DNA from: Candidatus Poribacteria bacterium
GTDB lineage: Bacteria; Poribacteria; WGA-4E; WGA-3G
DNA length: 62,389 nucleotides
NCBI GenBank assembly: GCA_009839975.1
Contig: VXOP01000361.1
Location: 1 to 62,389, forward strand
Reading direction: 5' to 3'
Part shown: positions 717-56,898 of the stretch, piece after piece
Position numbering within the stretch: the stretch's first letter is position 1
Layout: each line of letters opens with the position of its first letter
Notes under the pieces: generated by a model
The model's database searches: none
Told to the model about the DNA's origin: nothing
The model's input: only the letters and a program-made list of their open reading frames with translations
Position numbers and translations under genes: made by a program

Positions 717-842
717 AACAGGTAATCCCTGTGATTATTAAATGATAATAATTAGGTTAGAAGATTGTTAAATTTTTAGGATTTTTACCCTGAAATCCGT
801 CCTAAAAAGTTTTTTATGATATTATGTAAGGAGAATTTTATT

Positions 843-3800: not shown

Positions 3801-5027
3801 GACCAGACAGCTTTCGGTAATAGAGGCTGGACAGGTGTCGGTTATAGACGTATGGCTGCCCAGACTGCAGCGAACGGCGGAACGCCTGGTTACTCGAATG
3901 GTGCCTTCCATGATAAAGGCGATGATATAAGAAGAACTGTGTATATCAGCGAAATTATGTACGCTGATGACGAACGTGGTTCGCTCCCACAGTGGATTGA
4001 ACTTCGTAATCCTTCTAATGCAATGGGTGCCAATTTACACAACTGGCGTCTTACCATCACCAACCACGATTCTAAGAATGCAGATGGCGATGCGTTTGAA
4101 GGCAGAGGTTCATCAACTGTCCTGCTTAGAGGTTTGGAAATTCAACCGAATTCTGCTGTGTTGATTACATCACGCAAAGGCCCTCGGTCCGATGTCCGTC
4201 TCTCAGATGATGGTATCTTCGTCTTGTACCCAACGCATAGAAACGCTTTCAGTATGGCAAATGCTACAAGTGATATTTTAAACTCTTACGGGTTTAAAAT
4301 CCGTTTAGAAGCGAATGCTCATGACACAAACAAGAAACATGAGTGGCAGTTAGTTGAGGAAGTCGGGAACCTTGCTGAACGTAGAACAGGTACTGAGTTG
4401 ATGAGAGGCGAAAGAACGGATACGGAACGTTACGACGCTCCTCGTTGGATGTGGCCGGATGCAAATACTGAAGATGATGCTCGTATCTCAGTGGCACGCA
4501 CAAATATGCGCGGAGGCACTATGGCTACTGGCTTTACGGTGTCAGATGGCAAATCGGAATCCGGTTGGATTCTCTCCAATATGGATATGAGAACCGATTT
4601 AATCAGTCCTACCTATTATGGGCATCGAGACGATTGGAGCACACCAGGTCAAACAAGAGGTCAACCACTCCCAGTTGAACTGTCCCATTTCCGTCCAACA
4701 CTGGAAAACGGTAAAGTTACTATCCAGTGGACAACGGAATCAGAACTTGACAACGCTGGATTCAATATCCTCCGTAGCGATACACGCGACGGTGAATTCA
4801 CACAAGTCAATGAACAGATGATACAGGGTAAAGGCACAACGGCAGAACGTAACACCTATAAATGGGTTGATACAACGGCAAAACCCGGTGCTGTCTACTA
4901 TTACCAAATTGAAGATGTCTCATTCGCAGGTCAACATAATGTACTTGCTACGACTAAGTTGAAAGGCTTGATCTCAGCAAAAGGTAAGTTGACAACACAA
5001 TGGGGCGACTTGAAAAACTTGCGGTGA
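843..5027 (+). CDS. Large secreted surface protein with three lamin-tail-domain (LTD)-like segments, one cadherin-like/putative Ig domain and a conserved C-terminal beta-sandwich-like domain
   Basis: AAGGAG lies 9 nt before the ATG at 843. Signal peptide ...LPAMAQ. Cadherin-like segment: AVDPDGDSLIYSISPTLPAGLSFN. LTD-like motifs: ISEIMWA..QWIELHN, VINEVGNN..DWVEIRNASG, YISEIMYAD..QWIELRNPSN. Confidence 0.8.
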   Translation: MNLSHKLTFSLACFIVLLAFTALPAMAQTISATWVQDYDDDTADDQPGWNVTVAGLTAEDNVDITYLNVNLAAAASAGTQAGFADVGASPATSTTGQIAAALGSQIAVQVAAGASGSEVTYQRVTFPVASHGATLTAKDLVRLPMLADLTTPLYYANFGDMVTVTFNFAAAVAATNGDPVADLHVSDVTLGTPADWQYISVSKSGMTRSITYRSTHAANATSVTSTVNIGTAFATPTDPATDGQATIHYDNTAPTVTDNSVGIAAPPGFGTPPDGIWNSTFILTFSISDDTDGSGLPDSNPVRIRTDTAKLSVDSIGLADADNTVVGTEYLVRITPKADRVTRAGEDVLITIVPIDKAGNEGSSITSVKLTLVEAPPVQPNRAPDFGANTIQNITATAGTAITTVTLPAAVDPDGDSLIYSISPTLPAGLSFNAGTRMLSGTPTAMMAQTAYTYTARDGDGATDTIMFNITVNAARSLDEVATAMSSAVITIQPESFVVIVRDEDAMNNEGIQFRSDVTVVEWPGMPDLERLFYRGTQGIILDNGGGGAIILNESAAQAKDRRVGSVGISEIMWAIDKGYLGDETREKSSQWIELHNLNAAVQDNADTADVDESDDGVAKVYLSWKTGRDITSDSTITSGLSNPVLDVVTNFFNNRPGGPAWDVKGNSGNSIAGEDFASMARILPHNKSAYANADGARYDNRDGRNAGHWNASTSTYLNARTTIADGTDVVYQYEGTPGRANHVSVQNQPHVRQARTAKPSGNTIVINEVGNNSNDAYDWVEIRNASGGEINLKNYLVTKVTDNNTETVIVRFPANDNVKLASNAVFLILASEPADDLDHPIAANGHNVDKPAQEQVPGTPNSKVRYKVSSFNLPNDGNVVLMVRKPDSGHNNGPGAHKDQGTSETASTAHGPDLHHIVDIAGYHPNLRKEMYPNPVSSTNLWPLYAFDRPSFTNNRFDQNTVHQRNRTGALASDRAGVGSANNREDQTAFGNRGWTGVGYRRMAAQTAANGGTPGYSNGAFHDKGDDIRRTVYISEIMYADDERGSLPQWIELRNPSNAMGANLHNWRLTITNHDSKNADGDAFEGRGSSTVLLRGLEIQPNSAVLITSRKGPRSDVRLSDDGIFVLYPTHRNAFSMANATSDILNSYGFKIRLEANAHDTNKKHEWQLVEEVGNLAERRTGTELMRGERTDTERYDAPRWMWPDANTEDDARISVARTNMRGGTMATGFTVSDGKSESGWILSNMDMRTDLISPTYYGHRDDWSTPGQTRGQPLPVELSHFRPTLENGKVTIQWTTESELDNAGFNILRSDTRDGEFTQVNEQMIQGKGTTAERNTYKWVDTTAKPGAVYYYQIEDVSFAGQHNVLATTKLKGLISAKGKLTTQWGDLKNLR

Positions 5028-8663: not shown

Positions 8664-9095
8664 AAACTCTGTGCCGTTCAAAATAGGCAGGTATCCGTTT
8701 TGGGTATCTGTCTTTTTCTTTTTATTGTTGCATTTAGCGTGGTGGGTATGCTATACTAATCAGAATTGGTTGTTAAGAGTTTTTAAATAAGAAAAGGGGG
8801 TTGCTTTCACAACACCCCCAAATAGGATAAAAATAGGATACCACAAAAAGCATGGAATGTCAAGTAAAAAAGACAAAAAAGTTCAATTTTTTTTTGTGTA
8901 TTCTATTTTTTTTATTATAGGAGAAGAAAGATGGTGCTAAATCCATCCTTGCGTTTAGGCATTTTGAATGCCACCCCAGTTTCGTGTCATAATTTAGAGG
9001 CTCCTGAGTTAGTTGAGTCGACTGAATTTAACATACCTCACCCAACTGTAGATACCACGATGCAGTTGCCTTTTGGTTTTAGTAGTGCGTTATCT
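8652..9095 (+). repeat. Truncated copy A of the rep-like gene control region plus its first ~55 codons
   Basis: Aligns by eye with 12243-12717 and with the reverse complement of 32275-32796. It lacks a ~110-nt block present in the other two copies. Homology stops at about 9095. Confidence 0.85.
8782..8828 (-). ncRNA. Predicted countertranscript (antisense) RNA, copy A
   Basis: Minus-strand TTGACA (8858-8863), 17-nt spacer, TATCCT (8835-8840). Followed by a GGGGG..CCCCC hairpin (8796-8819) and a T-run. Confidence 0.4.
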
Positions 9096-9233
9096 GATAC
9101 GTGTCCTTTAAAATACATTCTAACAGTTCATGAAATAGGGCGCTCACAACGCCCTATCTCCTTAACTCACAAAAGTATACCAAAATACACTACTTTTGTC
9201 AAGCATAAATATAGACACAGACTAAGTTTATAG
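8931..9233 (+). pseudogene. Truncated rep-like gene (only the N-terminal ~55 aa are homologous)
   Basis: MVLNPSLRLGILNATPVSCHNLEAPELVESTEFNIPHPTVDTTMQLPFGFSSALS matches the N-termini of 12553..13665 and 31326..32438, then runs into unrelated sequence. Confidence 0.8.
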
Positions 9234-9421: not shown

Positions 9422-9655
9422 ATGCCAAGAGGACGAAAACTTACAACAGAACAAATACAACAAGCAGCAGCAGACCGAAGAAATGGCATGACCTGGAAAG
9501 CACTTAGCATAAAGTATAAAGTCGCAGTCAATACGATTAGGTATAGTTTAGCCGAGTATTCTGATGAGTTTGCTCCAACCGTGACAATGCTACGACCACA
9601 ACTCGAAAATCAACTCAACACCGCACGATCCGAAAAAAAGGCAGGCACCCAATAA
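9422..9655 (+). CDS. Small HTH DNA-binding protein (resolvase/transposase-type HTH)
   Basis: GRKLTTEQIQQA..NGMTWKALSIKYKVAVNTIRYSL. Confidence 0.5.
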   Translation: MPRGRKLTTEQIQQAAADRRNGMTWKALSIKYKVAVNTIRYSLAEYSDEFAPTVTMLRPQLENQLNTARSEKKAGTQ

Positions 9656-12177: not shown

Positions 12178-12321
12178 GAAAAAATAAGTTATGTTTGAAG
12201 TATAAAATTAAACTTATTTAATTTTCCTACTACACCATAAATATTCTAAACTGATCTTTTCTTTTAGGGTTGCTTTTATATTGGTAGGTATGCTATACTT
12301 ATCGGAGTGTGTTTTAAGAGT

Positions 12322-12369
12322 TTTAAATAAAAAATGGGGGTTGTTGAAAACAACACCCCCCACACTGAT
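12322..12369 (-). ncRNA. Predicted countertranscript RNA, copy B
   Basis: Minus-strand TTGACA (12399-12404), 17-nt spacer, TATCCT (12376-12381). Hairpin at 12336-12361, followed on the minus strand by ATTTTTTATTT. Confidence 0.45.
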
Positions 12370-12552
12370 AAAAGTAGGATACCACAAAATTTTGGATATG
12401 TCAAGTAAAAAATGCATTTTTTTACGAATCCCTGTATTTTCCGATAGTGTTTGGTGCGATAGGGAAATCGCACCTACCGACTGGGTTAGGTCAAGGGGTT
12501 GCATAGCAAAAGCGTGTGTGTATTCTATTTTTTTTATTATAGGAGAAGAAAG

Positions 12553-13665
12553 ATGGTGCTAAATCCATCCTTGCGTTTAGGCATTTTGAATGCTGTTCCT
12601 GTTTCGTGTCATAATTTAGAGGCTCCTGAGTTAGTTGAGTCGACTGAATACAACATACCTCACCCAACTGTAGATACCACGATGCAGTTGCCATTTGGTT
12701 TTAGTAGTGCGTTATCGGAGTTGTTGTCTGGTGAGATGCGTTCTATTGATTTTTTATTATTGTGTGTATTTAATTATCGTAGCACTTATGAGAATGGTAA
12801 GACGTGGCGGACAGGCTTGCGTCTGCTTTCTGAACTTACCGATGTATCAGTTCGTTATATCCGCCAAAGATTATCCGATTTGAAGGACAAGGGTTGGTTG
12901 CATGTTTTGTCAGTTGGTATAAATACGGGTAGTCGTTATCAAATAGTGCATCACAATTGTGATCGTGATGACGTTCCGACAGATAAAAATGGTAATCCGT
13001 TGAAGTTTGCGATACCTCGTGGTGTTGGCGGTATTCTTGAAAGGTTGTTTTCTGGTGATATAAGTTGGAAGTCTGCGGTTGTATGGATAGTCATGAAGTA
13101 TCGCAGTGATTGGCAGACGGGCATAACGAATTCGTTGAGTATTGACAAGATACGCAAGTGGGTAGGTATGAGTCCGCAGACGGTCGTTAATTGTATAAAA
13201 GAACTCACGAAAGCGGGTTTAGTTAAGCGTTTGTCCAAGAAGCACGAGGCGGGTGTATATCAGTTGTATCCGAAACCTGATGGGAAACCGAAGCCTGTTT
13301 TCCGCAAGCGGAAGGTTAAGAAGGTTCGGACACCTGAAGATAAGGAGATGCGTGCGGATGGTGATTGGCGTTATAGCTTCAACGAGTTATGGAGAGTCAA
13401 TGTTGAAACGAATCAGATTCAACGTAGAAAGTCGCGGCGTTTTGGTATATGGCGTAATACATCGGAGCATGAGCGCTACACACAGATGCCGAAGTCTATG
13501 CGGGATGCTTTTGAAAAAGCTTATGAGTATTACCATCAAATTAAACGGGAATTAGGTGTTACCGATAGCGCACATAGCGTTACCCATACCGCACAGGACG
13601 TTACCCATACCGCACAGCAGGTTTTGGATGGTGTGGTTGGAGGCAATGGTAGTAAGGATTCGTAA
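12553..13665 (+). CDS. Rep-like protein with two winged-helix/HTH modules (candidate replication initiator)
   Basis: AGGAG RBS before the ATG at 12553. Two wHTH-like segments (LSELTDVSVRYIRQRLSDLKDKGWL and IRKWVGMSPQTVVNCIKELTKAGLV). Paralog at 55765..56847 next to parA. Confidence 0.6.
   Translation: MVLNPSLRLGILNAVPVSCHNLEAPELVESTEYNIPHPTVDTTMQLPFGFSSALSELLSGEMRSIDFLLLCVFNYRSTYENGKTWRTGLRLLSELTDVSVRYIRQRLSDLKDKGWLHVLSVGINTGSRYQIVHHNCDRDDVPTDKNGNPLKFAIPRGVGGILERLFSGDISWKSAVVWIVMKYRSDWQTGITNSLSIDKIRKWVGMSPQTVVNCIKELTKAGLVKRLSKKHEAGVYQLYPKPDGKPKPVFRKRKVKKVRTPEDKEMRADGDWRYSFNELWRVNVETNQIQRRKSRRFGIWRNTSEHERYTQMPKSMRDAFEKAYEYYHQIKRELGVTDSAHSVTHTAQDVTHTAQQVLDGVVGGNGSKDS
13558..13620 (+). repeat. 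Three tandem 21-bp iteron-like repeats inside the 3' end of the rep-like gene
   Basis: GTTACCGATAGCGCACATAGC / GTTACCCATACCGCACAGGAC / GTTACCCATACCGCACAGCAG. Confidence 0.8.
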
Positions 13666-13830
13666 ACAACCCAATTTCGCGTAACGCGCAGCTAGTTCAA
13701 AATTAATTAGGACCCAAGACGCGGACAACTTCAATTTTTTGTTTTTTTTGGATCAGCATCAGCGTTTTGGGGTTTGGTAACGGGTTCAAAAAACAACACT
13801 TAAGGGAAAGAGTCAGGTTTTTTTTTAATT

Positions 13831-13855
13831 TAGACTGATATTCTGTATCGGTCTA
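13831..13855 (+). other. 25-bp imperfect palindrome, candidate recombinase (lox-like) site 1
   Basis: TAGACTGATA-TTCTG-TATCGGTCTA within an ~80-bp block (TTAAGGGAAAGA...CGTCCT) conserved in three places. Confidence 0.45.
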
Positions 13856-13994
13856 TCTGCGTTGCAGCGTCCTGTCATCAGGACGGACGCATTCCCTTGC
13901 TTGGGGTGGATTAAGGGGTGTGGTATGTCAATACCTACTAACGATGTTACTGATTGTAAATGTCAAATTCTCTAAATTGTCTAATCTGTTAATT

Positions 13995-14654: not shown

Positions 14655-16154
14655 TTACAGCAAAACACCTTGATTTTTGAGTTTTGCAATAAGTTGTTCT
14701 TGTGTGCCTGCTCCTTTTGTAGAGTTGCAAGCACCACACAACAACTGCAGATTGTCTATATCATCCGTTCCATCTGCTGATCGCGGGACGATATGGTCAA
14801 TTGTTAGGTTGCGTATCGGTAGCAAGTATTGACACCCGTTGCATTTGCCCTCTTGGATACCATATAACGTGTGCTTGTAGGATACAAAGACTTGCATTTC
14901 CGCCTCAGACAACACAATATCCGATTTTCTTATCCTATTTTTCTCTGCTTGTATCCACTCCTTGCTAAACAAGCCGCTTAACGTTAAACGTTTCTCTTTT
15001 GGCGTGTCAGTGCGTTCTGGCACATCCGTTCTGTGATTTATTTTACCAACAAGATGTCTCAACAATGGCATCTCTTTTTCTATACGCGATTTGACTAATT
15101 CAACAGCCTTTGGCGATAAATCAATACCTATCCACTTCCTATTTAGATTTTCCGCGGCAAGACACGTCGTAGCACACCCACAAAACGGATCCAAGACGAC
15201 ATCCCCGGCGTTGCTACTCGCTTTGATAATCCGATCAAGCAAAGATAACGGCTTCTGGGTAGGATAGCCTGTTCTCTCTTTTCCTGCTGCTATAGGTATA
15301 TCAATCCATAAACTTCCTATGGGTTTACCTTTATAATTATCTGCATAGGATTTTCTTAATGGACGTTTTCCTTCACGCCATATAATATCTCCTGCTTTAT
15401 CCATTTTAATTAATTTTTCTTTACTGACTCGCCATCCTGATGAATGTGGGTTTGAAATTCCTTTATATTCATAACATAAATTAGGTCTGTCTCCCATTGA
15501 CGGTTGACGAAATAAAGGGGTTGTTGTGTTATATTTTCTGCCATTTGTATCAGTATATGGAAATTTCTCATTTATTTCTAACTCTGATAGTGGTTGGGTA
15601 ACTAAGTTATGTAATAGATTATTGGATTTTGAATAGTGAAAAATGTTATCTGTGTCTTTGCCCAGTGATTTACTTTTATATTGACTACCTTTTGCCCTTC
15701 CTGATGCCCTTTGCCACACAATCTCGTTCCTGAAGTTATCCTGCCCGAACACCGAGTCCATCATCATTTTCAGATAATGACTCGCTGTTGGATCGCAATG
15801 CAGGTAGATACTGCCTTTCGGAGACAGGATACGGTGCATCTCTAACATACGAATTGACATCATGATGAGATATGCTTTCATCGCTTTACCGTGTGCTAAT
15901 TCCGCAGCGACGATGCATTGATAGAGTGATGGGTAATCCTCCGCTATCTGCCCGTGCCAGGCATTATCCACGTCATCTAGTGTCCACGAGTCTTTGAATG
16001 CTGCCCCTGCTGCCTCACTGCCTATCGGTGCAGAATAACTTTTATTACTATTGAAAGGTGGATCCAGATATATCAAGTCAATTGAATCTGAATTGATACC
16101 TTTGAGAACTTCTATATTGTCGCGTTCAAAGATGGTTCTGTTTTGAACATTCAT
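14655..16154 (-). CDS. Beta-class N4/N6 DNA methyltransferase fused to a C-terminal HNH endonuclease domain (paralog 1)
   Basis: AAGGAG RBS before the ATG at 16154. Motif IV DPPF precedes motif I (DPFCGCATT). C-terminal CNGC...IDHIVPRS..G.DDIDNLQLLCGACN. Confidence 0.8.
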   Translation of the reverse strand: MNVQNRTIFERDNIEVLKGINSDSIDLIYLDPPFNSNKSYSAPIGSEAAGAAFKDSWTLDDVDNAWHGQIAEDYPSLYQCIVAAELAHGKAMKAYLIMMSIRMLEMHRILSPKGSIYLHCDPTASHYLKMMMDSVFGQDNFRNEIVWQRASGRAKGSQYKSKSLGKDTDNIFHYSKSNNLLHNLVTQPLSELEINEKFPYTDTNGRKYNTTTPLFRQPSMGDRPNLCYEYKGISNPHSSGWRVSKEKLIKMDKAGDIIWREGKRPLRKSYADNYKGKPIGSLWIDIPIAAGKERTGYPTQKPLSLLDRIIKASSNAGDVVLDPFCGCATTCLAAENLNRKWIGIDLSPKAVELVKSRIEKEMPLLRHLVGKINHRTDVPERTDTPKEKRLTLSGLFSKEWIQAEKNRIRKSDIVLSEAEMQVFVSYKHTLYGIQEGKCNGCQYLLPIRNLTIDHIVPRSADGTDDIDNLQLLCGACNSTKGAGTQEQLIAKLKNQGVLL

Positions 16155-16254
16155 CACAAGACTCCTTTTGTCCATTTTACAGTTAATATTCTCTCTATAC
16201 ACATGTGCAGATATTTTGATTTTAGCATAACACCCGTTCAATTTCTACTACTGC

Positions 16255-16467: not shown

Positions 16468-17892
16468 TTACAGGCTAATATCGTAATTATCATCTTTCGG
16501 ATAGTAAGGTCCGCGTTTTCTCGGCTGATGGATTTCTCCGTTCTCTACCATTTTGCGAAGTGTCTTTCTAATTAGACTATCCGAGACAGTGCCGCCTTTT
16601 CCGTCAGAGATTTCAATTTCTGATGGTGTCAGTCCATCTTTTGCGTCGTTAAGCAGGTCTATAATGTTGTTTCGCAGTTCTGACTGGTGGAACGTCTTTG
16701 CGTCTCCTTGTAGTTCCCATAAACCTATTGACGGATCAATTGTGAAAGACAATTCGCGTGTTGATATACGTTTGCCAGTTAAGTGTAAGGTTTTGGATCC
16801 TGAATCGTGCTGTAGCATCATCAGAGTATCCGCGGCTGCTTGAATCCCCGTTGACCCTTGTAGTTGATTAAAAGCATTGTCGGTATCAACTGCTTTGCGA
16901 GTATGCGTTATTAGGATAATGCACATATTTCTGCGGTTTGCGAGATTCTGAATTGGAATGACGACGTCGTAGTCGGTATCGTATGCTGTGCCTCTGGCAT
17001 TGCTTAACTGCGGTTTGACGCGATGCAACGTATCAATAATCAAAAGTTCTGTTTCTGTTTTGTCAAGATGAGTTTCAAGTAGTTTTATGCCTGCATTGTC
17101 CAAGACGAGAGTCTGGGTGTTGTCTATGATATGTAAGTTTGATAAGTCATGACTATTTTCTGTCAGTAAATCAATTCTGCCAAGTAAGAGATCCGGTGGG
17201 TCGTCAAAACATAGATATGTGACGTTGCGGGGTTCGTCCAGTTCTATTTTAGAAAAGACGGCTGCTCTGCTTGCAATCGCAACTGCGATATTTGTAGCAA
17301 AGAAGCTTTTACCAATTTTTGCGGGGCCGCCAAGAATTGCCAATCCTTCAGGTAGCATATCAGGTATGAACCATTTTACAGGCGGAACAATGCGGTCTTT
17401 CGCATCTGCATGTGTAAATGAATTGAGTTGCTTTGATGTAGATGTTTGGATATTCTCACCAACCTCAAGTATTTGCGACTGAATATATGCAATTTCAACG
17501 CTTTCATTGTATGCTAATTTTGTTATTTCGTTGGATATACTGATTATCGCCCTTCGTGTTGCGTAATCCTTAAGTATTCTCGCGTATACTACGGTGTTTT
17601 CAGTTTCAACAATCGGTGCCTGCAAGTCGTAAAGATAGTCAGGACCTCCAACACGATTAAGTTGTTCATTTATTTTCAAGTCATGTGCTACCAATATAGG
17701 GGTAACTCTTTCGTGTTTCTCAAATACTTTCAAGATGGTTGCATAAATCAGTTTGTGATCGGTTGTGAAAAATGCATCGGCAGAATTGCCTAACAAATCC
17801 TCAACGGCGGGTATTACTAATGGATTTATCATCATCGCGCCAAGCACTGCCTTTTCAGCATCGGCATCTTGCAAAAGTTTAATATCGTACAT
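16468..17892 (-). CDS. DnaB-N-terminal-domain / RecA-like AAA helicase (RepA/plasmid-phage replicative helicase type) with C-terminal wHTH
   Basis: GGAGG RBS before the ATG at 17892. DnaB-N-like AEKAVLGAMM...HKLIY. Walker A GGPAKIGKS. Walker B LLIIDTLH. Confidence 0.75.
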   Translation of the reverse strand: MYDIKLLQDADAEKAVLGAMMINPLVIPAVEDLLGNSADAFFTTDHKLIYATILKVFEKHERVTPILVAHDLKINEQLNRVGGPDYLYDLQAPIVETENTVVYARILKDYATRRAIISISNEITKLAYNESVEIAYIQSQILEVGENIQTSTSKQLNSFTHADAKDRIVPPVKWFIPDMLPEGLAILGGPAKIGKSFFATNIAVAIASRAAVFSKIELDEPRNVTYLCFDDPPDLLLGRIDLLTENSHDLSNLHIIDNTQTLVLDNAGIKLLETHLDKTETELLIIDTLHRVKPQLSNARGTAYDTDYDVVIPIQNLANRRNMCIILITHTRKAVDTDNAFNQLQGSTGIQAAADTLMMLQHDSGSKTLHLTGKRISTRELSFTIDPSIGLWELQGDAKTFHQSELRNNIIDLLNDAKDGLTPSEIEISDGKGGTVSDSLIRKTLRKMVENGEIHQPRKRGPYYPKDDNYDISL

Positions 17893-18135
17893 GTTTATCT
17901 CCTCCTTTTTTGAGTAAGGAGGCAACTGATGAGGGTATCAGCGACCTCGCTGGCTTTTGCAACCTCGCAATTCTCTTTTAGGGCCGCTTTGCCATTGAGG
18001 TAGGGATTCCTACCTCTCAGGGCATGCGCGGCGAGCCATACGAGGTTTTAATAGCGCGTGCGCTTTAGAAAAGGATTGGTAGTCCTTACGCACAGAACAA
18101 CTCCACAGCTGCTCCGCTATCATTATAACACTAAT

Positions 18136-18576: not shown

Positions 18577-18630
18577 CCCTCCATCTTCTTACAGACAATT
18601 AAGGGAAAGATTTTGATTTTTTCTCTTGTT

Positions 18631-18655
18631 TAGACTGATATTTTATATCGGTCTA
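18631..18655 (+). other. Candidate lox-like site 2 (same orientation as site 1)
   Basis: TAGACTGATA-TTTTA-TATCGGTCTA with the same conserved flanks. Confidence 0.45.
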
Positions 18656-18836
18656 TTTGTATTGCATCGTCCTATAGTTCAGAGGCACGGATGTTTTATC
18701 TTTGTTTTTCTACAGCAGGGATTGCAGGGACTGATGTAACCACCACCCGATAGTCAACGATTATCAGAAAGTTGACAAAATGTGTCCATATTCTGCTAAA
18801 ATACGAACACCTTAAAATGTCAAGGAGACTTAAGAA

Positions 18837-19810: not shown

Positions 19811-20728
19811 TCACCCGCTCTTACCATACTTATATCTTGCGATTGCACCGCGTTCTGCCAACTCCGCCCTCGCATAATGCGCGGGCATCTGTGGACTCTT
19901 CCATCTACCCGCTTCCTGCATATTAACAACTGATGCACCTGCCTGCGCGAGACTCACAGCAGAACCCACACGGAGAGAATGCCCCGAGATGAAACCGTCA
20001 AACCCTGCTGCATTTGCCCGCTTTACGATGATCTGTCGTGCAGATTGACACGTGAGTCTTTGTCTTTGGATATGATCTCCGCGTCGTATTCTTCTAAATA
20101 ACGCACCTTCAGTTATACTTGCACCAGTCCGGTATCGTGTCAATATCTTACGTGTGTCTTCACCCACATAAAGAGACTCACCGATGCCCGTCTGATCTGT
20201 CTTGCTTTTCCTAATCAGTAAGGTTTGCTTCTCAAAATCCGATATGTCTACTGCTACGACTTCAGCAACCCGCAGCAGACAATCAGACATCAAGCGAATC
20301 ATAGCACTATCACGAAGCCCTGCAACCGTCCGATCTGATTCAGCGAAAGCACAGACACGTTCTACTTGAGCCCATGTCAAGCCATCAACTTGCCCGCGTC
20401 CTCTGTCTTTCCCTTCGCGACGGATACCTGCAAGCACCCCGTTTGTCAGCGTGAGTTCTAAATCCGAATTGCCAGAATACTTTGCACGCCAGCGGACAGC
20501 ACTCACCACTTTTGCAATTGTGCCTGGAGATCTACCAACTTCATGCAGGTGTGTAAGGTATTCAGCCAACAGCACATCATCTAAAGACCTATCACCAAGC
20601 CACGAGGATAAAGCAGCCAAACAGCCACGATATCCCCGCAGTGTGTTCTCAGAGAGGGCCGATGCCAAAATTTTTTTTGTATTTTCCTGGACTGGCAGCC
20701 CGCTTGTTGCTTTCTGTAGTTTGTCCAT
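19811..20728 (-). CDS. Cre-like tyrosine recombinase
   Basis: C-terminal SGHSLRVGSAVSLAQAGASVVNMQEAGRWKSPQMPAHYAR carries the HxxR...W...Y catalytic signature and closely resembles Cre GHSARVGAARDMARAG...GGW...NY. Start chosen at MDKLQK. Confidence 0.8.
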   Translation of the reverse strand: MDKLQKATSGLPVQENTKKILASALSENTLRGYRGCLAALSSWLGDRSLDDVLLAEYLTHLHEVGRSPGTIAKVVSAVRWRAKYSGNSDLELTLTNGVLAGIRREGKDRGRGQVDGLTWAQVERVCAFAESDRTVAGLRDSAMIRLMSDCLLRVAEVVAVDISDFEKQTLLIRKSKTDQTGIGESLYVGEDTRKILTRYRTGASITEGALFRRIRRGDHIQRQRLTCQSARQIIVKRANAAGFDGFISGHSLRVGSAVSLAQAGASVVNMQEAGRWKSPQMPAHYARAELAERGAIARYKYGKSG

Positions 20729-20835
20729 CTTGCGCCTATTGGATAATAACTCATGATTTACACAAAAATCAATACCTAAATATAATACAGAATACCACAA
20801 ATCAACGGAAAATGCCCACCTACATTCTTTTCCGC

Positions 20836-22101
20836 TTACCGTTCCGCTAACTTCGCAACTAAATACTCCTGCCCCCGATTGCCTTTGATGCGGTTACAAT
20901 TGCCACAAAGCAATTGAAGGTTGTCAATATGATCCGTTCCCCCGACTGATCTCGCTATTATATGGTCTATCTCCAGGTGCTGAGCCTCAAAATGTGTGTT
21001 GCATCCATTACAATTACCTGCTTGTTCTCCATACAGAAATTTTTTGTTAGCAGAGGTGTTGTAAGGTGGTGTATTTCCTAAATCTGTGCGGCGTGGAATA
21101 TCTGTTCGGTGTATAATATTTTGAAACAAGCCTTGATCTGTTTTAATACGGTCAACAACTAAGTCAACTGCCTTTGGTGATATGTCAATGCCAACCCAAT
21201 TCCGTTGTAAACGCTCTGCTGCGACACACGTTGTAGCACACCCACAAAACGGATCAAAGACAATACCATCCTTATTACTGGACGCTTCAATGATAAGTTC
21301 TAATAGCGCTGATGGCTTTTGCGTGGGATAACCTGTATATTCTCTTGCTTGACTATTTAAAACTGATATATTCCACACATCGCTGATGGCTTTACCTTCT
21401 GGCATTGGAACATCATATATCGTCCTCCCTTCCTGCTCCCATGTAGGTAGCCTGCTTTTCACCTTTGGATTTTCTCTGTCATATATCCGAACAATCTTCT
21501 TCCCGCTACTTGATCCTGCATTATATCCAGCAGAAATTAACTGCTTTTGGCGTTCTGTTAGTTCACCGTATTGTTTATTGAAGATATAATTATCTGTAGC
21601 GGAATACATCATAATGATGTCGTGGTTGCGCTGGAAGTAACGCGCAGTATTTGTCCATTTTTCATAATGCCACACAATTTCATTCCTAAAGTTTTTCCTA
21701 CCAAAGATTGCATCCATTAGCAACTTCAGATAATGCGACATTGTTGGATCACAGTGCAAGTATATACTCCCATCTGTTTTCAAGATACGGTGCATTTCAA
21801 GCAAACGGGTTGCCATGTAAATCAGATACGATTTATCGGAATCTGTCATAGATGCTTGGATAACACGGTTAACAGCAGGATATTTGGTCTCAATCAAGTC
21901 AAGCCATGCAACATCTAAATCATTGAGTGACCATGTATCCTTGAATTCCGCACCTGCTGCTTGTGATCCGATAGGTGCAGCATAGTTAGCATTGCTATTG
22001 AAAGGCGGATCCAGGTATATCAAATTAATGCATTCAGAATTGATGCCGCGTAAAATAGGTAGGTTATCACCTGTGAATATTGTCTTGTTTGCTATGTTCA
22101 T
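20836..22101 (-). CDS. Beta-class N4/N6 DNA methyltransferase fused to a C-terminal HNH domain (paralog 2)
   Basis: GAGG RBS before the ATG at 22101. DPPFNS, then DPFCGCATT. C-terminal CNGC...IDHIIARS.GGTDHIDNLQLLCGNCN. Confidence 0.8.
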   Translation of the reverse strand: MNIANKTIFTGDNLPILRGINSECINLIYLDPPFNSNANYAAPIGSQAAGAEFKDTWSLNDLDVAWLDLIETKYPAVNRVIQASMTDSDKSYLIYMATRLLEMHRILKTDGSIYLHCDPTMSHYLKLLMDAIFGRKNFRNEIVWHYEKWTNTARYFQRNHDIIMMYSATDNYIFNKQYGELTERQKQLISAGYNAGSSSGKKIVRIYDRENPKVKSRLPTWEQEGRTIYDVPMPEGKAISDVWNISVLNSQAREYTGYPTQKPSALLELIIEASSNKDGIVFDPFCGCATTCVAAERLQRNWVGIDISPKAVDLVVDRIKTDQGLFQNIIHRTDIPRRTDLGNTPPYNTSANKKFLYGEQAGNCNGCNTHFEAQHLEIDHIIARSVGGTDHIDNLQLLCGNCNRIKGNRGQEYLVAKLAER

Positions 22102-22261
22102 CGGTTCATACCTCAAAGTAAAACATTGTGTAACGCGTCTTTTTTCATTATATCACAAATGGACAAGTTGAAGTAAAGCTGAATGATTTTTACCATCCAA
22201 CTTTTTCCCGGTACCACATTCTATCCTCCTTGAGTATATATGCGTTATTTTATTAATCATC

Positions 22262-22968: not shown

Positions 22969-23201
22969 CATTTGTTCTTCTTATACCCTATTATCATGTC
23001 GGTTTCGCAAGTTCTACCCGACCTACAATTACAGTGAAATTCAGAAGTATATGCACAATTTCGGTCCAATGGATATAAACCATTATACTGAAAGGTTTAA
23101 TAATGTCTATTTATGTGTTTTGATTTTTGATGTGTTATCAAGAATCTGAAGTACAATCTTGTCCTGATATAAAACTGAGCAAATACTCAGGAGGTATTGA
23201 A

Positions 23202-31325: not shown

Positions 31326-32438
31326 TTACGAACCCTTACTACCATTGCCTCCAACCTCCCTCTCCAAAACATCGTGCGCGGTATGGGTAACGCCCTGTGC
31401 GGTATGGGTAACGCTGTGTGTGCTATCGGTAACACCTAATTCCCGTTTAATTTGATGGTAATACTCATAAGCTTTTTCAAAAGCATCCCGCATAGACTTC
31501 GGCATCTGTGTGTAGCGCTCATGCTCCGATGTATTACGCCATATACCAAAACGCCGCGACTTTCTACGTTGAATCTGATTCGTTTCAACATTGACTCTCC
31601 ATAACTCGTTGAAGCTATAACGCCAATCACCATCCGCACGCATCTCCTTATCTTCAGGTGTCCGAACCTTCTTAACCTTCCGCTTGCGGAAAACAGGCTT
31701 CGGTTTCCCATCAGGTTTCGGATACAACTGATATACACCCGCCTCGTGCTTCTTGGACAAACGCTTAACTAAACCCGCTTTCGTGAGTTCTTTTATACAA
31801 TTAACGACCGTCTGCGGACTCATACCTACCCACTTGCGTATCTTGTCAATACTCAACGAATTCGTTATGCCCGTCTGCCAATCACTGCGATACTTCATGA
31901 CTATCCATACAACCGCAGACTTCCAACTTATATCACCAGAAAACAACCTTTCAAGAATACCGCCAACACCACGAGGTATCGCAAACTTCAACGGATTACC
32001 ATTTTTATCTGTCGGAACTTCGTCACGATCACAATTGTGATGCACAACCTCGTATATGCTACCCGTATTAATACCAACAGATAAAACAAATAACCAACCC
32101 TTGTCCTTCAAATCGGATAGCCGCTCGCGGATATAACGAACAGATACATCGGTAAGTTCAGAAAGCAGACGCAAACCCGTCCGCCACGTCTTACCCGTAT
32201 CATAAGTGCTACGATAATTAAATACACACAGCAATAAAAAATCAATAGAACACATCTCACCAGACAACAACTCCGATAACGCACTACTAAAACCATAAGG
32301 CAACTGCATCGTCGTCTCTACAGTTGGGTGAGGTATGTTGTATTCAGTCGACTCAACTAACTCAGGAGCCTCTAAATTATGACACGAAACAGGAACAGCA
32401 TTCAAAATGCCTAAACGCAAGGATGGATTTAGCACCAT
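31326..32438 (-). CDS. Rep-like double winged-helix protein (second complete copy)
   Basis: By my count it differs at 19 positions from the 12499..13665 translation. Confidence 0.6.
   Translation of the reverse strand: MVLNPSLRLGILNAVPVSCHNLEAPELVESTEYNIPHPTVETTMQLPYGFSSALSELLSGEMCSIDFLLLCVFNYRSTYDTGKTWRTGLRLLSELTDVSVRYIRERLSDLKDKGWLFVLSVGINTGSIYEVVHHNCDRDEVPTDKNGNPLKFAIPRGVGGILERLFSGDISWKSAVVWIVMKYRSDWQTGITNSLSIDKIRKWVGMSPQTVVNCIKELTKAGLVKRLSKKHEAGVYQLYPKPDGKPKPVFRKRKVKKVRTPEDKEMRADGDWRYSFNELWRVNVETNQIQRRKSRRFGIWRNTSEHERYTQMPKSMRDAFEKAYEYYHQIKRELGVTDSTHSVTHTAQGVTHTAHDVLEREVGGNGSKGS
31371..31433 (-). repeat. Three tandem 21-bp iteron-like repeats (copy C)
   Basis: Reverse complement of the GTTACC(C/G)ATA(C/G)CGCACA units. 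Confidence 0.8.
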
Positions 32439-32621
32439 CTTTCTTCTCCTATAATAAAAAAAATAGAATACACACACGCTTTTGCTATGCAACCCCTTGA
32501 CCTAACCCAGTCGGTAGGTGCGATTTCCCTATCGCACCAAACACTATCGGAAAATACAGGGATTCGTAAAAAAATGCATTTTTTACTTGACATATCCAAA
32601 ATTTTGTGGTATCCTACTTTT

Positions 32622-32666
32622 ATCAGTGTGGGGGTGTTGTGAAAGCAACCCCCCTTTCAATTTTTA
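32622..32666 (+). ncRNA. Predicted countertranscript RNA, copy C
   Basis: TTGACA (32587-32592), 17-nt spacer, TATCCT (32610-32615). Hairpin GGGGGTGTTG..CAACCCCCC (32630-32654), then TTTCAATTTTT. Confidence 0.45.
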
Positions 32667-32721
32667 AAACTATTAACACTCATTCCGATTAGTATACCAT
32701 ACCTGCCAATACAAATGCAAC

Positions 32722-36976: not shown

Positions 36977-37021
36977 AACTCCGTTTACACGGTTCTCCTT
37001 TATTATCTGAAAAGAGGCAAA

Positions 37022-39667: not shown

Positions 39668-39710
39668 ACATCATGATCCTCCTTTACAGGACTAATTGTA
39701 CCGCGTTTAT

Positions 39711-55348: not shown

Positions 55349-55589
55349 AAAATCTCCTCTATTTTTTTCTTATACGTTAGTATAAACATACAATTTTTCT
55401 ATTGTCAAATTAATTTTGGATGTGCATTTATGGTGAATTTATACCAGTCATAATTTTTAGATTTTACGCAGAATTTGACAATATTCTTACAAAATTATGC
55501 GAATTTGTGTAAATTTAAGTTGATTAAAAATTGGATTTAATATTATTATTTAATATGTTTAGGAAGAATTAATATAGTTTTCAGTTAAA

Positions 55590-55641
55590 ATGCCGAAACC
55601 CAAGACAAATGTCTTGGGTCTATAAAAGCAGTGTTCGGCAT
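55590..55641. other. Long hairpin/cruciform in an AT-rich region upstream of the rep-like paralog (origin-like)
   Basis: ATGCCGAA (55590-55597) / TTCGGCAT (55634-55641) enclose ACCCAAGAC-AAAT-GTCTTGGGT (55598-55619). About 250 bp of very AT-rich DNA lies upstream. Confidence 0.4.
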
Positions 55642-55764
55642 GATTTTTGGACAGCAGAGTCTTTAAAATCAAATAGCCTGCATAATAGGCTGTTAAGAGT
55701 ATAACATTTATGATAAAAATAGTCAAATGTATTTTTCACTTTTTTTACTCTTACAGCCTCAAAA

Positions 55765-56847
55765 ATGAGGTTTATTATGTCCGGACAAACGTCAAATACT
55801 TTCAATAAGTTTCATATCAACCTATCGAGTTCAGGTACAAATCCTGCTATTTATGCCAGTTTTTTAGAGTGGGAACCGATTGTCCTGTCTGATTCGTCTA
55901 TATCTGAGGAACATTCAAGCTCTGCTGTTCGTATTCCGTCAATAGTATCTCAAGTTTCAGGTGTATCGGAGGTCCCAGAGATCCAAGAGACGACGCATCA
56001 GGTGCCGTGTGGCAAGCATAGTATATTTGATCCTGATGAGAAAGTGCCTGGTTTTGTGAGAGTTGTTTATCTGCAGATGAACGAACATTCTAACTGGGAG
56101 TCTGGCGTGACGCATGCTTTATCGCTTCGCCATCTTGCTAAATCCGTGAATGTGAAAAACCATTCGCAAGTGCATCGTGCACTGCAATGGCTTATTGAGA
56201 ATGGGTGGATACTAGTTAAGGGAAAACGCAAGTCAGATGGAGCTTACTTCTACCAAATCGTCCATCACAAGTGCGACCCACAGGATGTGCCTGTTGACCG
56301 AGATGGAAGACCGCAGAAATGTGCCGTGCCAACGGGACCAGGATCACCAAGCCAACTACTCGCTGAAGGAAAAATAACTTGGAGGGTATTTCTGGATTGG
56401 ACAGTCCGAAAAATACATTCGTGTTGGACATCCGGAATCGCTAAAATGGCAGTCCGAGATACAGCTAAACTCGCAAAACTTAGTGTCAAGACCATAGCCA
56501 AAAATGCTAAGAAAATGATGGAAATCGGGCTGTTGAAACGGTTGTCCCCAAAGTTTAGACTCTCCGAGTATCAAATGTTCCCAAAACCTTATACAAATAG
56601 AAGGGAACGAACACCTGAGCCGTGTGCAAGCAAAAAAGCTATGAAATGCATCAACGGATGGTATTATAGCTACAATGGACTGTGGCGATTTCATAAGCAA
56701 ACTTTCCACATAAAAATGCAGGAACACGGAGGCAGATGGAGAGATAGCAACTCCGAAGAACTCGCTAACATAAATAGAAGTATATATAAAGACTTCTGTC
56801 AGTATATGCAAAGACTCGCGCGATTACCAAAGACGGCTTCACCCTGA
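55765..56847 (+). CDS. Rep-like double winged-helix protein (divergent paralog of the 370-aa family)
   Basis: Shares YQIVHHKCDPQDVPVDRDGRPQKCAVP (compare YQIVHHNCDRDDVPTDKNGNPLKFAIP), ..W......W......SG......LAKLSVKTIAKNAKKMMEIGLLKRLS and MFPKPY. Confidence 0.6.
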   Translation: MRFIMSGQTSNTFNKFHINLSSSGTNPAIYASFLEWEPIVLSDSSISEEHSSSAVRIPSIVSQVSGVSEVPEIQETTHQVPCGKHSIFDPDEKVPGFVRVVYLQMNEHSNWESGVTHALSLRHLAKSVNVKNHSQVHRALQWLIENGWILVKGKRKSDGAYFYQIVHHKCDPQDVPVDRDGRPQKCAVPTGPGSPSQLLAEGKITWRVFLDWTVRKIHSCWTSGIAKMAVRDTAKLAKLSVKTIAKNAKKMMEIGLLKRLSPKFRLSEYQMFPKPYTNRRERTPEPCASKKAMKCINGWYYSYNGLWRFHKQTFHIKMQEHGGRWRDSNSEELANINRSIYKDFCQYMQRLARLPKTASP

Positions 56848-56898
56848 ACTTGCTTCAACTGTTTAACTGTGCCCCGCGGTGCTAAGTAAAATAATATA

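What the first reader, a model, noticed from the sequence alone, without database searches (positions are those of the whole stretch)
12270..12553. Predicted antisense (countertranscript) RNA in the leader of every rep-like gene copy
In all three copies a TTGACA-17-TATCCT promoter on the strand opposite the rep-like gene points at a G5/C5 hairpin followed by a T-run. This predicts an ~45-nt RNA fully complementary to the rep mRNA leader, if the sense transcript starts at the upstream TTGC(A/T)T-18-TATACT promoter.

The 17-nt spacer sequence differs between copy A and copies B/C, while the hexamers and their spacing are preserved. This is the classic copy-number-control layout of small plasmids, and it supports calling the 370-aa protein a replication initiator.

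Coordinates: 8782-8828 (-), 12322-12369 (-), 32622-32666 (+).
Basis: partly seen in the sequence, partly recalled or inferred. Interest (0 to 1): 0.65.

Follow-up and report, generated by a model that had tools for sequence, protein, structure and literature searches.

The report
Antisense RNA gene in plasmid rep leaders
Each copy of a plasmid replication gene in this sponge-symbiont (Candidatus Poribacteria) DNA carries, in its leader, a small conserved gene for a ~45-base antisense RNA of the kind that small plasmids use to limit their own copy number; this is a classical design found in a plasmid family that appears undescribed.

Summary
TTGACA-17-TATCCT occurs exactly three times in the 62 kb window, only in the three rep leaders (0.02 expected). 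Each copy points at a GC-rich hairpin followed by a T-run on the strand opposite rep.

The layout is kept in relatives down to 42% protein identity, with a similar one upstream of a 30% paralog in the window. Ten of 11 independent leaders carry such a promoter (2.1 expected). The invariant alignment columns include TTGA of the -35, the G of an extended-10 TG (its T nearly invariant) and T-A-n-n-n-T of the -10. Hairpin stems differ in sequence but always fold.

The 370-aa protein is very probably a plasmid initiator. Relatives sit on exact concatemers of 4,023- and 4,768-bp units in circular-flagged contigs, and the model shows two tandem winged helices.

New here: the antisense promoter lies inside a long, covarying hairpin of the sense leader (SL-II). 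SL-II brings the antisense target next to the ribosome-binding site. Two relatives instead place the promoter inside rep, so their antisense RNA covers the start codon.

No RNA data could be found, so the transcript and its exact mode of action remain predictions. Verdict: a real, well-supported new member of a known kind.

The parts
12270..12299 (+). Copy B sense promoter P_rep: TTGCTT-18-TATACT with TG at 12291-12292. The predicted rep mRNA start is about 12306.
   Evidence: Sequence. Aligns in the same columns as TTGACA-18-TA(A/G/T)ACT of L001, L016, L012 and L013.
12376..12404 (-). Copy B antisense promoter: TTGACA-17-TATCCT with an extended-10 TG.
   Evidence: Alignment A3: TTGA of the -35, the G of the TG and T-A-n-n-n-T of the -10 are invariant, and the T of the TG nearly so.
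12322..12369 (-). Predicted countertranscript ctRNA-B, about 48 nt: a 5' tail, a hairpin (12336-12361) and a U-tail. It is fully complementary to about +17..+64 of the rep mRNA.
   Evidence: -18.8 kcal/mol, z -3.4. No transcript data are available.
12364..12538 (+). SL-II of the sense leader, a long hairpin. Its base helix pairs alpha (12369-12381, the complement of the antisense -10 plus the A-rich linker) with beta (12520-12532, just upstream of the Shine-Dalgarno sequence). The antisense -35 and a 104-nt B/C-specific insert (12413-12516) lie in its upper part.
   Evidence: MFE folds. Alpha-beta complementarity with shuffle controls and compensatory changes.
12541..13665 (+). Copy B Shine-Dalgarno AGGAG (12541-12545) and the rep gene (ATG 12553, 370 aa). 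The start codon sits in a small hairpin, GATGGtgctaaatCCATC.
8728..8757 (+). Copy A sense promoter: TTGCAT-18-TATACT (TG before the -10).
8835..8863 (-). Copy A antisense promoter: TTGACA-17-TATCCT (TG).
8782..8828 (-). Predicted ctRNA-A, about 47 nt, with its hairpin at 8796-8819. The hairpin sequence is identical to that of copy C.
   Evidence: -14.5 kcal/mol, z -2.6..
8821..8917 (+). Copy A SL-II. The alpha strand is about 8826-8841 and the beta strand about 8898-8913.
8931..9233 (+). Copy A rep remnant. Only 8931-9097 is homologous to rep; the rest of the gene is deleted.
   Evidence: repeat D3, 8895-9097 = 12517-12719, 96%.
32691..32720 (-). Copy C sense promoter: TTGCAT-18-TATACT.
32587..32615 (+). 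Copy C antisense promoter: TTGACA-17-TATCCT (TG).
32622..32667 (+). Predicted ctRNA-C, about 45 nt, with its hairpin at 32630-32654.
   Evidence: -16.9 kcal/mol, z -2.9..
32453..32627 (-). Copy C SL-II, the mirror of copy B.
   Evidence: (repeat I1).
31326..32438 (-). Copy C rep gene (370 aa, 95% identical to copy B).
   Evidence: P0001.
55520..56847 (+). Fourth, divergent Rep paralog (55765-56847, 360 aa, 30% identity) with a similarly organised leader. It has a sense promoter TTGATT-18-TATTAT (55520-55549), a nested hairpin (55593-55640) and an antisense promoter TTGACT-17-TATACT with TG (55726..55698, minus strand).

Best explanation
Each site is a small gene for a cis-encoded antisense RNA (countertranscript, ctRNA). 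It lies in the 5' leader of the rep gene of a plasmid family that I could not find described, most likely from Candidatus Poribacteria, which are sponge symbionts.

Shown by sequence and comparison: a sigma-70-type promoter with an extended -10 (TTGACA-17/18-TG-n-TAnnnT) faces the rep promoter from about 100 bp away. It runs into a GC-rich hairpin plus U-tract. This predicts a 45-48 nt RNA (5' tail, hairpin, U-tail) that is perfectly complementary to the first stem-loop (SL-I) and adjacent linker of the rep mRNA.

Inferred from the classical plasmid systems: the RNA is made constitutively in proportion to gene dosage, pairs with the rep mRNA leader, and lowers Rep synthesis. That would set copy number and incompatibility.

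How pairing is turned into repression is not shown. In the window's copies the RNA does not cover the ribosome-binding site. Instead, a conserved and covarying long hairpin of the sense leader (SL-II) loops out the DNA segment that carries the antisense promoter. As a result SL-I and its 4-9 nt A-rich linker end up 2-12 nt from the Shine-Dalgarno sequence.

My preferred reading (inference, about 35-40%) is that the ctRNA-mRNA duplex removes a single-stranded standby or landing site and sterically blocks 30S binding at a start codon that already sits in a weak hairpin. RNase III cleavage and decay of the duplex is a possible addition or alternative. In two relatives (L020, L025) the same promoter sits inside the first ~20 codons of rep, and the RNA covers the start codon and Shine-Dalgarno sequence directly. 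This argues that translation is the controlled step in this family.
For: - Exact pattern: it occurs 3 times in the window, only in the rep leaders, against 0.02 expected. The scans list all three sites with TG.
- Relatives: 10 of 11 independent leaders have a minus-strand promoter (-35 at least 5/6, TAnnnT, spacing 16-18) against 2.1 expected from shuffles. All hits to the pattern in the loci lie on the strand opposite rep and, with one stray exception (L018), just upstream of it.
- Alignment A3: the invariant columns include TTGA of the -35, the G of the extended-10 TG (its T nearly invariant) and T1, A2 and T6 of the -10. The -10 varies as TATCCT, TATCAT, TACCAT, TACAAT and TATAAT, always keeping the bases that matter most for sigma-70.
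- Hairpins: stem sequences differ (GGGGGTTG.., GAGTGATGG.., GGCATGC.., GGGTGTGT.., AGGGTGC.., GCCCGCG..) but all fold, with z from -2.6 to -5.4 for the 11 tested. A U-rich tract follows on the antisense strand only.
- Sense promoter: it is conserved upstream, so the sense transcript does cover the target.
- Rep identity: relatives sit on exact 4,023-bp (237x) and 4,768-bp concatemers in circular-flagged contigs, on a 5.5-kb contig, and on 55-68 kb circular-flagged contigs, two of which carry ParA. The AF2 model has two tandem winged helices. PHROG gives weak hits to replication-initiation O-like and DnaD-like families.
- SL-II: 13-16 contiguous alpha-beta pairs in 8 of 10 leaders in the 18-nt analysis. 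In the shuffle test with a 13-nt alpha, at most 7 of 1000 shuffles matched the observed run in those eight. There are compensatory changes at four columns, and G.U pairs occur only in the sense orientation.
- Class II relatives: the ctRNA covers the AUG and Shine-Dalgarno sequence.
Against: - No transcript evidence. No RNA run holding this DNA could be listed.
- The -10 hexamer is also one strand of the conserved sense-RNA helix (alpha), so part of its conservation could come from RNA structure rather than promoter function.
- The motif TAGGATA is repeated 4 times in L011 and twice in copy A, which could point to a protein-binding site.
- In the window's copies the ctRNA ends 100-180 nt upstream of the start codon. 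In a thermodynamic model, blocking the target does not change Shine-Dalgarno accessibility.
- No convincing ctRNA-dependent terminator or preemptor was found.
- U-tails are weak in L009, L011 and L013.
- It is not known whether Poribacteria RNA polymerase uses this consensus, beyond the conservation itself.
- Circularity of the window was not shown, and copies B and C might be silent passengers.
Confidence: 0.72

Rival explanations
1. There is no antisense RNA. The conserved hexamers are constrained by the sense leader. On this view AGGATA is one strand of the SL-II helix and/or a Rep or repressor binding site (an iteron or operator of the form TAGGATA/TAGGAAT). TGTCAA would be a conserved loop or binding motif. 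The GC hairpin would be a 5' stabiliser or regulatory stem-loop of the rep mRNA.
For: - The alpha-beta helix covaries, and G.U pairs fit only the sense strand.
- TAGGATA-containing units are repeated 4 x 37 bp in L011 and twice in copy A. A similar TAGGAATT sits at the rep transcription start in most relatives.
- No transcript data exist.
Against: - This does not explain why TTGACA sits at exactly 17-18 bp from a TAnnnT, with a TG one base upstream of that hexamer, in 10 of 11 lineages.
- It does not explain why the variable -10 keeps T1, A2 and T6 rather than an iteron core.
- It does not explain why the U-tract always follows the hairpin on the antisense strand only.
- It does not explain why L020 and L025, which lack SL-II, have a fresh TTGACA-18-TATAAT/TAGAAT inside rep aimed at the same hairpin.
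Confidence: 0.12
2. The antisense promoter works mainly through transcriptional interference with the convergent rep promoter (collision or occlusion across about 100 bp). The hairpin and T-run serve only as an insulator that stops antisense transcription from running into upstream genes. On this view RNA-RNA pairing is incidental.
For: - The two promoters face each other with start sites about 63 bp apart.
- The ctRNA does not reach the ribosome-binding site.
- The thermodynamic model shows no structural switch.
Against: - Interference needs no stable, structured, GC-rich hairpin with covarying stems that sits exactly on a matching sense stem-loop.
- In L012 and L020 the antisense RNA is about 90-115 nt and structured. 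In L020 and L025 it covers the AUG and Shine-Dalgarno sequence, a layout typical of trans-acting antisense control.
- The rep-less remnant (copy A) has kept an intact RNA gene whose hairpin is identical to that of copy C. That makes sense only for a diffusible product.
Confidence: 0.1
3. The system is a pT181/pIP501-type attenuator. ctRNA binding to the nascent leader would let SL-II and its following U-rich stretch act as an intrinsic terminator upstream of rep.
For: - SL-II ends in a U-rich stretch just before the Shine-Dalgarno sequence in all class I leaders.
- In 4 of 9 nascent-RNA folds the 5' leader pairs with the alpha region, which could act as a preemptor.
Against: - The U-tract is largely paired with the A-rich linker and forms part of the stem. 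In L001 only 2 U follow a perfect 16-bp helix.
- The enclosed loop is 57-150 nt, which is unlike any intrinsic terminator.
- The putative preemptor is not conserved.
- SL-II forms with or without the target blocked.
Confidence: 0.06

Closest known systems
pMV158/pLS1 RNA II and the R1162/RSF1010 ctRNA (small plasmid countertranscripts that block rep translation; from my own knowledge of the literature)
   Same: A roughly 50-75-nt RNA made of a short 5' tail, one terminator hairpin and a U-tail. It is transcribed convergently with rep from a constitutive promoter in the leader. In relatives L020 and L025 it covers the Shine-Dalgarno sequence and AUG, as these RNAs do.
   Different: - In the window's copies the RNA ends 100-180 nt upstream of the start codon.
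- The Rep is a tandem winged-helix/HTH_36 protein, not a rolling-circle or RSF1010-type initiator.
- No sequence or structure match to any Rfam family, even at E <= 10.
pSK41 RNAI, ColE2 RNAI and IncB/IncI RNAI (antisense RNAs that bind the 5' leader far from the ribosome-binding site and act at a distance; from my own knowledge)
   Same: The target is a stem-loop at the 5' end of the rep leader, not the ribosome-binding site. Repression has to be transmitted through leader structure. Foldseek gives weak hits of the Rep model to the pSK41-type RepA N-terminal domain (4pql, 4pt7, E 0.02-0.04).
   Different: - No pseudoknot activator or refolding switch could be found.
- Here a covarying long hairpin (SL-II) that contains the antisense promoter places the target next to the ribosome-binding site.
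- There is no Pfam RepA_N or Rep_3 match.
pT181 RNAI/RNAII and pIP501 RNAIII (attenuation; from my own knowledge)
   Same: A countertranscript against the 5' leader well upstream of the start codon. A hairpin followed by U-rich sequence lies just before the Shine-Dalgarno sequence. A small HTH gene accompanies rep on the small plasmids, a possible analogue of CopR.
   Different: SL-II is not a canonical terminator, and no conserved preemptor was found.
IstR-1/tisB standby-site occlusion (from my own knowledge)
   Same: An antisense RNA pairs about 100 nt upstream of a structured ribosome-binding site and blocks a ribosome standby site. This matches the geometry proposed here once SL-II is folded.
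   Different: IstR-1/tisB is a chromosomal toxin-antitoxin locus, not a replication control system. The standby role of the A-rich linker here is pure inference.

Membership tests
Plasmid countertranscript (cis-antisense) replication control, as a functional class | A promoter on the strand opposite rep, inside the rep leader | tested here: met
   It is conserved in 10 of 11 lineages against 2.1 expected, and the promoter-critical positions are invariant or nearly so. This is sequence-level evidence only.
Plasmid countertranscript (cis-antisense) replication control, as a functional class | An intrinsic terminator that gives a short, structured RNA | tested here: met
   A hairpin plus U-tract on the antisense strand is found in all leaders, with z from -2.6 to -5.4 for the 11 tested. 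The U-tails are weak in L009, L011 and L013.
Plasmid countertranscript (cis-antisense) replication control, as a functional class | The sense rep transcript starts upstream of the target, so the RNA is complementary to the mRNA | tested here: met
   A conserved upstream promoter (TTGnnn-17/18-TAnACT or TAACAT) aligns across relatives. The start site itself has not been mapped.
Plasmid countertranscript (cis-antisense) replication control, as a functional class | The RNA is actually made, and it lowers Rep synthesis and copy number | not testable with these tools
   No RNA-seq run holding this DNA could be listed.
Plasmid countertranscript (cis-antisense) replication control, as a functional class | The regulated gene is the initiator of an autonomously replicating plasmid | tested here: met
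   Relatives lie on exact 4,023-bp and 4,768-bp concatemers in circular-flagged contigs. They also lie on a 5.5-kb contig and on 55-68 kb circular-flagged contigs, two with ParA. The fold is a tandem winged helix. This is context evidence, not an assay.
Described Rfam antisense families (the ctRNA families of pGA1, pND324, pT181 and p42d, plus CopA and RNAI) | A match to the family covariance model | tested here: not met
   There is no hit at gathering score in the whole window. None of these families appears even at E <= 10 in leaders A and B.
pT181/pIP501-type attenuation | A ctRNA-dependent intrinsic terminator in the sense leader with a mutually exclusive preemptor pairing | tested here: inconclusive
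   SL-II is followed by U-rich sequence, but those U residues pair with the A-rich linker. The loop is 57-150 nt. A preemptor appears in only 4 of 9 nascent folds and is not conserved.
Direct translational block (pMV158 RNA II type) | The ctRNA overlaps the Shine-Dalgarno sequence and/or the start codon | tested here: not met
   This is not met for the three window copies, where the RNA ends 100-180 nt upstream. It is met in relatives L020 and L025.
Known plasmid initiator protein families (Pfam Rep_3, RepA_N and others) | A significant match to the family profile | tested here: not met
   Pfam gives only HTH_36 and generic winged-helix hits. NCBIfam gives nothing meaningful. The PDB sequence search finds only generic HTH regulators. 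PHROG gives weak hits (E about 5e-8) to replication-initiation O-like and DnaD-like families.

The most novel reading that the evidence does not exclude
The family uses an undescribed layout in which the antisense promoter is hidden inside a covarying hairpin of the very mRNA it regulates. SL-II loops the promoter segment out of the folded leader, so that a 45-nt RNA binding 100-180 nt upstream of the start codon acts right beside the ribosome-binding site by occluding a standby site.

The multi-replicon 62-kb element may also exploit the RNA genes as specificity modules. Copies B and C differ in the hairpin loop, which suggests different recognition specificity. The rep-less remnant A keeps an RNA gene whose hairpin is identical to that of C. 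It could act as a trans-acting incompatibility or exclusion determinant against related small plasmids.
Probability: 0.25. Interest if true: 0.65.

Novelty: new member of a known kind. Interest (0 to 1): 0.5.

Why it matters
Poribacteria are uncultured sponge symbionts with no genetic tools, and plasmids of sponge symbionts are barely characterised. One recent long-read/Hi-C study could not link any plasmid to any MAG (PMC11410982). My two literature searches found no paper describing a Poribacteria plasmid.

This locus defines a replicon family with four parts: a Rep protein of unannotated type, its promoter, a predicted copy-control RNA, and a structured leader. The family occurs both as 4-5.5 kb high-copy circles and as modules in 55-68 kb elements that carry eukaryote-like symbiosis proteins.

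This gives a minimal replicon to build vectors from, a marker for plasmid-host linkage in sponge metagenomes, and a natural series of variants. In that series the promoter lies upstream of, on top of, or inside the start of rep. The series can be used to study how antisense control at a distance evolves from direct ribosome-binding-site occlusion.

The control principle itself is classical, so the finding extends known biology rather than overturning it.

Tried and rejected
- **Expression data.** Three searches for RNA runs (leader, gene, 10 kb of the window) listed nothing.
- **DNA runs.** These only confirmed a 2-3x depth over rep and contig breaks at the repeat borders. They also showed one recombinant joint.
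- **Public records.** DNA searches (blastn) of the 'phages' and 'plasmids' collections found no match. A protein-pattern scan of viral contigs found none. The metagenome contig scan gave only two distant fragments.
- **Rfam.** Nothing was found at gathering score or at E <= 10 that relates to antisense control.
- **Refolding switch.** Constraining the ctRNA target as unavailable does not consistently change Shine-Dalgarno or AUG accessibility, so this was rejected as unsupported.
- **Attenuator.** Considered and judged weak.
- **Second sense promoter at beta (TATYCT).** Only copies B and C have a usable -35 (TTGCAT-16-TATTCT, brought in by the insert). Other lineages have none, and the covariation with G.U pairs favours an RNA helix.
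- **Leader peptide.** A 24-codon ORF over SL-I exists only in copy B and is not conserved.
- **YUNR loop motif.** Not conserved.
- **MAFFT-based covariation counts for SL-I.** The stems are too divergent in length to align. I therefore relied on per-sequence folding with shuffle controls.
- **Fold search.** It could not assign the Rep to a specific initiator family. It returned only generic tandem winged-helix proteins.
Full report
**1. What is at the coordinates**

The window holds three copies of one module.
- Copy B is the leader 12270-12552 plus a 370-aa gene at 12553-13665 (+).
- Copy C is the mirror image: gene 31326-32438 (-), 1,393 nt at 96% identity to B.
- Copy A (8728-9097) is a remnant. 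It keeps the leader and only the first ~55 codons.

In each copy the strand opposite the gene carries TTGACA-17-TATCCT preceded by TG. This exact pattern occurs three times in 62 kb and nowhere else, against 0.02 expected.

Seven to fifteen bases downstream of the -10 lies a GC-rich hairpin. On that strand only, a U-rich tract follows it. The predicted 44-45-nt RNAs fold at -14.5 to -18.8 kcal/mol, with z = -2.6 to -3.4 against dinucleotide shuffles. The terminator scan missed them because the stems contain one bulge.

The 17-nt spacer differs between A and B/C, while the hexamers, the spacing and the TG are kept. The sense promoter TTGC(A/T)T-18-TATACT lies about 100 bp upstream and faces the antisense promoter.

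**2. What the gene is and where it comes from**

Pfam sees only an HTH_36/winged-helix signal. PHROG gives weak hits to replication-initiation O-like and DnaD-like families.

About 50 relatives exist, all unnamed. In the genome collection the relatives lie in Candidatus Poribacteria MAGs, including fragments in a 5.9-Mb chromosome. DNA runs holding the window are sponge metagenomes.

The context of the relatives is decisive.
- One relative lies on a circular-flagged 14.2-kb contig at 237x that is an exact concatemer of a 4,023-bp unit.
- Another lies on an exact 4,768-bp concatemer.
- Another lies on a 5.5-kb contig.
- Others lie on 55-68 kb circular-flagged contigs, two of which carry ParA.
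- On the small circles no other gene matches a known DNA-replication family. The only other gene with any DNA-binding signal is the small HTH gene described below, which gave one weak hit.

An AlphaFold model (pLDDT 72) shows two tandem winged-helix domains. Foldseek returns tandem winged-helix proteins and, weakly, the pSK41-type RepA N-terminal domain.

The protein is therefore very probably a plasmid replication initiator of a family that carries no annotation. The window is a whole contig. It also carries a fourth, 30%-identical Rep paralog next to ParA and a beta-CASP gene. This matches the layout of the large circular relatives, so the window is probably a ~62-kb multi-replicon plasmid. 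Circularity was not shown.

**3. Comparative test of the antisense gene**

I collected leaders of relatives from 78% down to 42% protein identity.
- Ten of 11 independent leaders carry a minus-strand promoter (-35 at least 5/6, TAnnnT, spacing 16-18), against 2.1 expected from shuffles. The eleventh has TTGATT-17-TACAAT.
- In an alignment of the antisense genes the invariant columns include TTGA of the -35, the G of the extended-10 TG (its T nearly invariant) and T1, A2 and T6 of the -10.
- The -10 varies (TATCCT, TATCAT, TACCAT, TACAAT, TATAAT) while keeping the bases that sigma-70 needs most. The spacers are free to vary.
- Downstream there is always a stable hairpin (z from -2.6 to -5.4 for the 11 tested) with a different stem sequence in each lineage. 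A U-rich tract follows it on the antisense strand.
- The sense promoter is conserved too, and it aligns with TTGACA-18-TA(A/G/T)ACT of relatives.

This is the signature of a transcribed antisense gene, not of chance similarity. No Rfam family matches, even at E <= 10.

**4. A second conserved element: SL-II**

The complement of the antisense -10, together with the A-rich linker in front of it (alpha), pairs with a segment just upstream of the Shine-Dalgarno sequence (beta).
- There are 13-16 contiguous pairs in 8 of 10 leaders.
- With a 13-nt alpha fixed only by the promoter position, at most 7 of 1000 shuffles matched the observed run in those eight leaders.
- Four columns show compensatory changes.
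- All transition mismatches are G.U in the sense orientation, which would be A.C in the antisense orientation.

MFE folds of all class I leaders show the same picture: SL-I (the ctRNA target), a 4-9-nt linker, a long hairpin SL-II with the antisense -35 in its upper part, and then the Shine-Dalgarno sequence 2-12 nt after the helix. The 104-nt segment specific to copies B and C lies inside the SL-II loop.

So the -10 region is under double constraint. This is a caveat for the promoter argument. However, the -35, the TG and the spacing cannot be explained by the helix.

**5. How it probably works**

By analogy with the classical systems, the RNA should pair with SL-I and the linker of the rep mRNA and lower Rep synthesis. 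This is inference. The step after pairing is unresolved.
- A refolding switch is not supported. Blocking the target in a partition-function model leaves Shine-Dalgarno accessibility unchanged.
- An attenuator is weak. The U-tract after beta is mostly paired with the linker, and the loop is 57-150 nt.

Two relatives (L020, L025) lack SL-II. They have a TTGACA-18-TATAAT or TTGACA-18-TAGAAT promoter inside codons ~9-19 of rep. Their antisense RNA runs over the AUG and Shine-Dalgarno sequence and stops at a hairpin just upstream of the Shine-Dalgarno sequence. In L012 the promoter overlaps the start codon.

This series suggests that translation is the controlled step. In class I, SL-II would then keep the target next to the ribosome-binding site. 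In most class I leaders the start codon is itself in a small hairpin (unpaired probability 0.01-0.11 in six of the nine modelled). I therefore favour occlusion of a standby or landing site and steric hindrance by the ~45-bp duplex, possibly with RNase III-dependent decay. Transcriptional interference between the convergent promoters may also contribute.

**6. Rivals**

- The hexamers could be sense-RNA or protein-binding constraints (TAGGATA repeats in L011 and copy A, TAGGAATT at the rep start). This cannot explain the -35/TG/-10 geometry, the strand-specific U-tract, or the class II layout.
- Pure transcriptional interference cannot explain the structured RNA or the retention of an intact RNA gene by the rep-less remnant A.
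- Chance is excluded.

**7. Comparison and novelty**

The system works like the countertranscript controls of small plasmids.
- The class II relatives resemble pMV158 RNA II.
- The window's class I copies resemble the action-at-a-distance cases (pSK41, ColE2, IncB).

It is not a member of any described RNA family, and its Rep matches no described initiator family. I rate it a new member of a known kind. The SL-II layout and the multi-replicon arrangement are the parts that might turn out to be new variants.

No transcript data could be obtained. The existence of the RNA remains a strong prediction rather than an observation.

Noticed in passing
window 55520-58000 and 60790-62328: There is a fourth, divergent Rep paralog (55765-56847, 360 aa, 30% identical to the 370-aa Rep and 33% to P0049). 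ParA (57294-57938) and a beta-CASP nuclease (60790-62328) follow it. This matches the layout on two circular-flagged 62-68 kb relatives, so it is probably the primary replicon. Its leader has a similar module, with an antisense TTGACT-17-TATACT (55726..55698) and a nested, covarying hairpin (55593-55640).
   Followed up: partly
window 9422-9634 (+); L016 5796-6059, L012 6278-6541, L027 5692-5955, L021 2975-3244: A conserved ~87-aa HTH protein (ending ..IKxALKKRFNLHI) accompanies rep on the small plasmids. A homolog (53-65% identity) lies next to the rep remnant A. Copy A is therefore the relic of a small plasmid that lost most of rep. The protein could be a Cop-like repressor.
   Followed up: partly
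window 12336-12361 versus 32630-32654 and 8796-8819; joint 8814->12357 in run X4: The 96% identity between copies B and C starts inside the SL-I hairpin (12357). The loops differ: GAAAA in B, CTTTCA in A and C, which is roughly the loop inverted. A and C share an identical hairpin although their flanks are only 72% identical. One sponge metagenome contig joins the A-type 5' leader to the B/C-type 3' part at the hairpin. This suggests module exchange at SL-I and possibly distinct ctRNA specificities.
   Followed up: partly
window 12413-12516 (and mirror 32475-32578): A 104-nt segment is present only in leaders B and C, replacing 23 nt in A. It contains a stable hairpin, GGTGCGATagggaaATCGCACC. 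It also supplies a -35 (TTGCAT-16-TATTCT, 12500-12527) that could create a second sense promoter independent of the ctRNA.
   Followed up: no
L011 3760-3910: Four tandem 37-bp repeats lie between SL-I and the antisense -35. Each contains AATAGGATACC, the antisense -10 motif, and they look like iterons. In this relative the predicted ctRNA would be about 150 nt long, and its terminator has no U-run.
   Followed up: no
window 8758-8795, 12300-12335, 32655-32690; same place in L001, L013, L016: Two short conserved motifs lie in the first 35 nt after the rep -10: T(A/C)(G/A)GAAT(T/G) at the predicted start site, and GTTAATAGTTTYAAA. The second is more conserved than a mere U-tail complement needs to be. 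It could be an operator or an RNA element.
   Followed up: no
window 8685-8713 (+), 32767-32730 (-); L001, L012, L016 upstream of rep: A conserved terminator hairpin (AGGCAGGTAnCC...GGTTATCTGCCT followed by a T-run) lies directly upstream of the rep promoter in copies A and C and on the small plasmids. It insulates the rep promoter from upstream transcription. Copy B lacks it.
   Followed up: no
window 816-5027, 23127-29717, 35108-36337, 48602-50368, 54221-55348: The window encodes large eukaryote-like repeat proteins (cadherin plus LRR at 2,196 aa, lamin-tail/Ig at 1,403 aa, TPR, WD40). These are typical of sponge symbionts and here sit on what is probably a plasmid.
   Followed up: no
window 14655-16241, 20836-22116, 50531-54127, 16468-17925, 19811-20800, 36799-37651: Between copies B and C lie two methyltransferase-HNH fusion genes, a DnaB-like helicase and a tyrosine integrase. 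A diverged inverted copy of the integrase region (79-83% identity, 19848-20677 versus 37075-37651) lies just beyond copy C. An Eco57I-type restriction-modification gene lies further along, at 50531-54127. The 17.5-kb segment between the inverted rep copies B and C could invert by recombination.
   Followed up: no
window 12552-12569, 8930-8947, 32439-32422: The start codon of rep sits in a small hairpin, GATGGtgctaaatCCATC. Relatives L009, L011 and L015 pair the AUG with an upstream CAUCAU instead. The start codon is mostly paired in the folding ensembles.
   Followed up: partly
window 39710-39990 and 44542-44823; 13818-13892 and 18618-18692: There are two further direct repeat pairs (about 280 nt at 89-92% identity, and 75 nt at 75%) of unknown meaning.
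   Followed up: no
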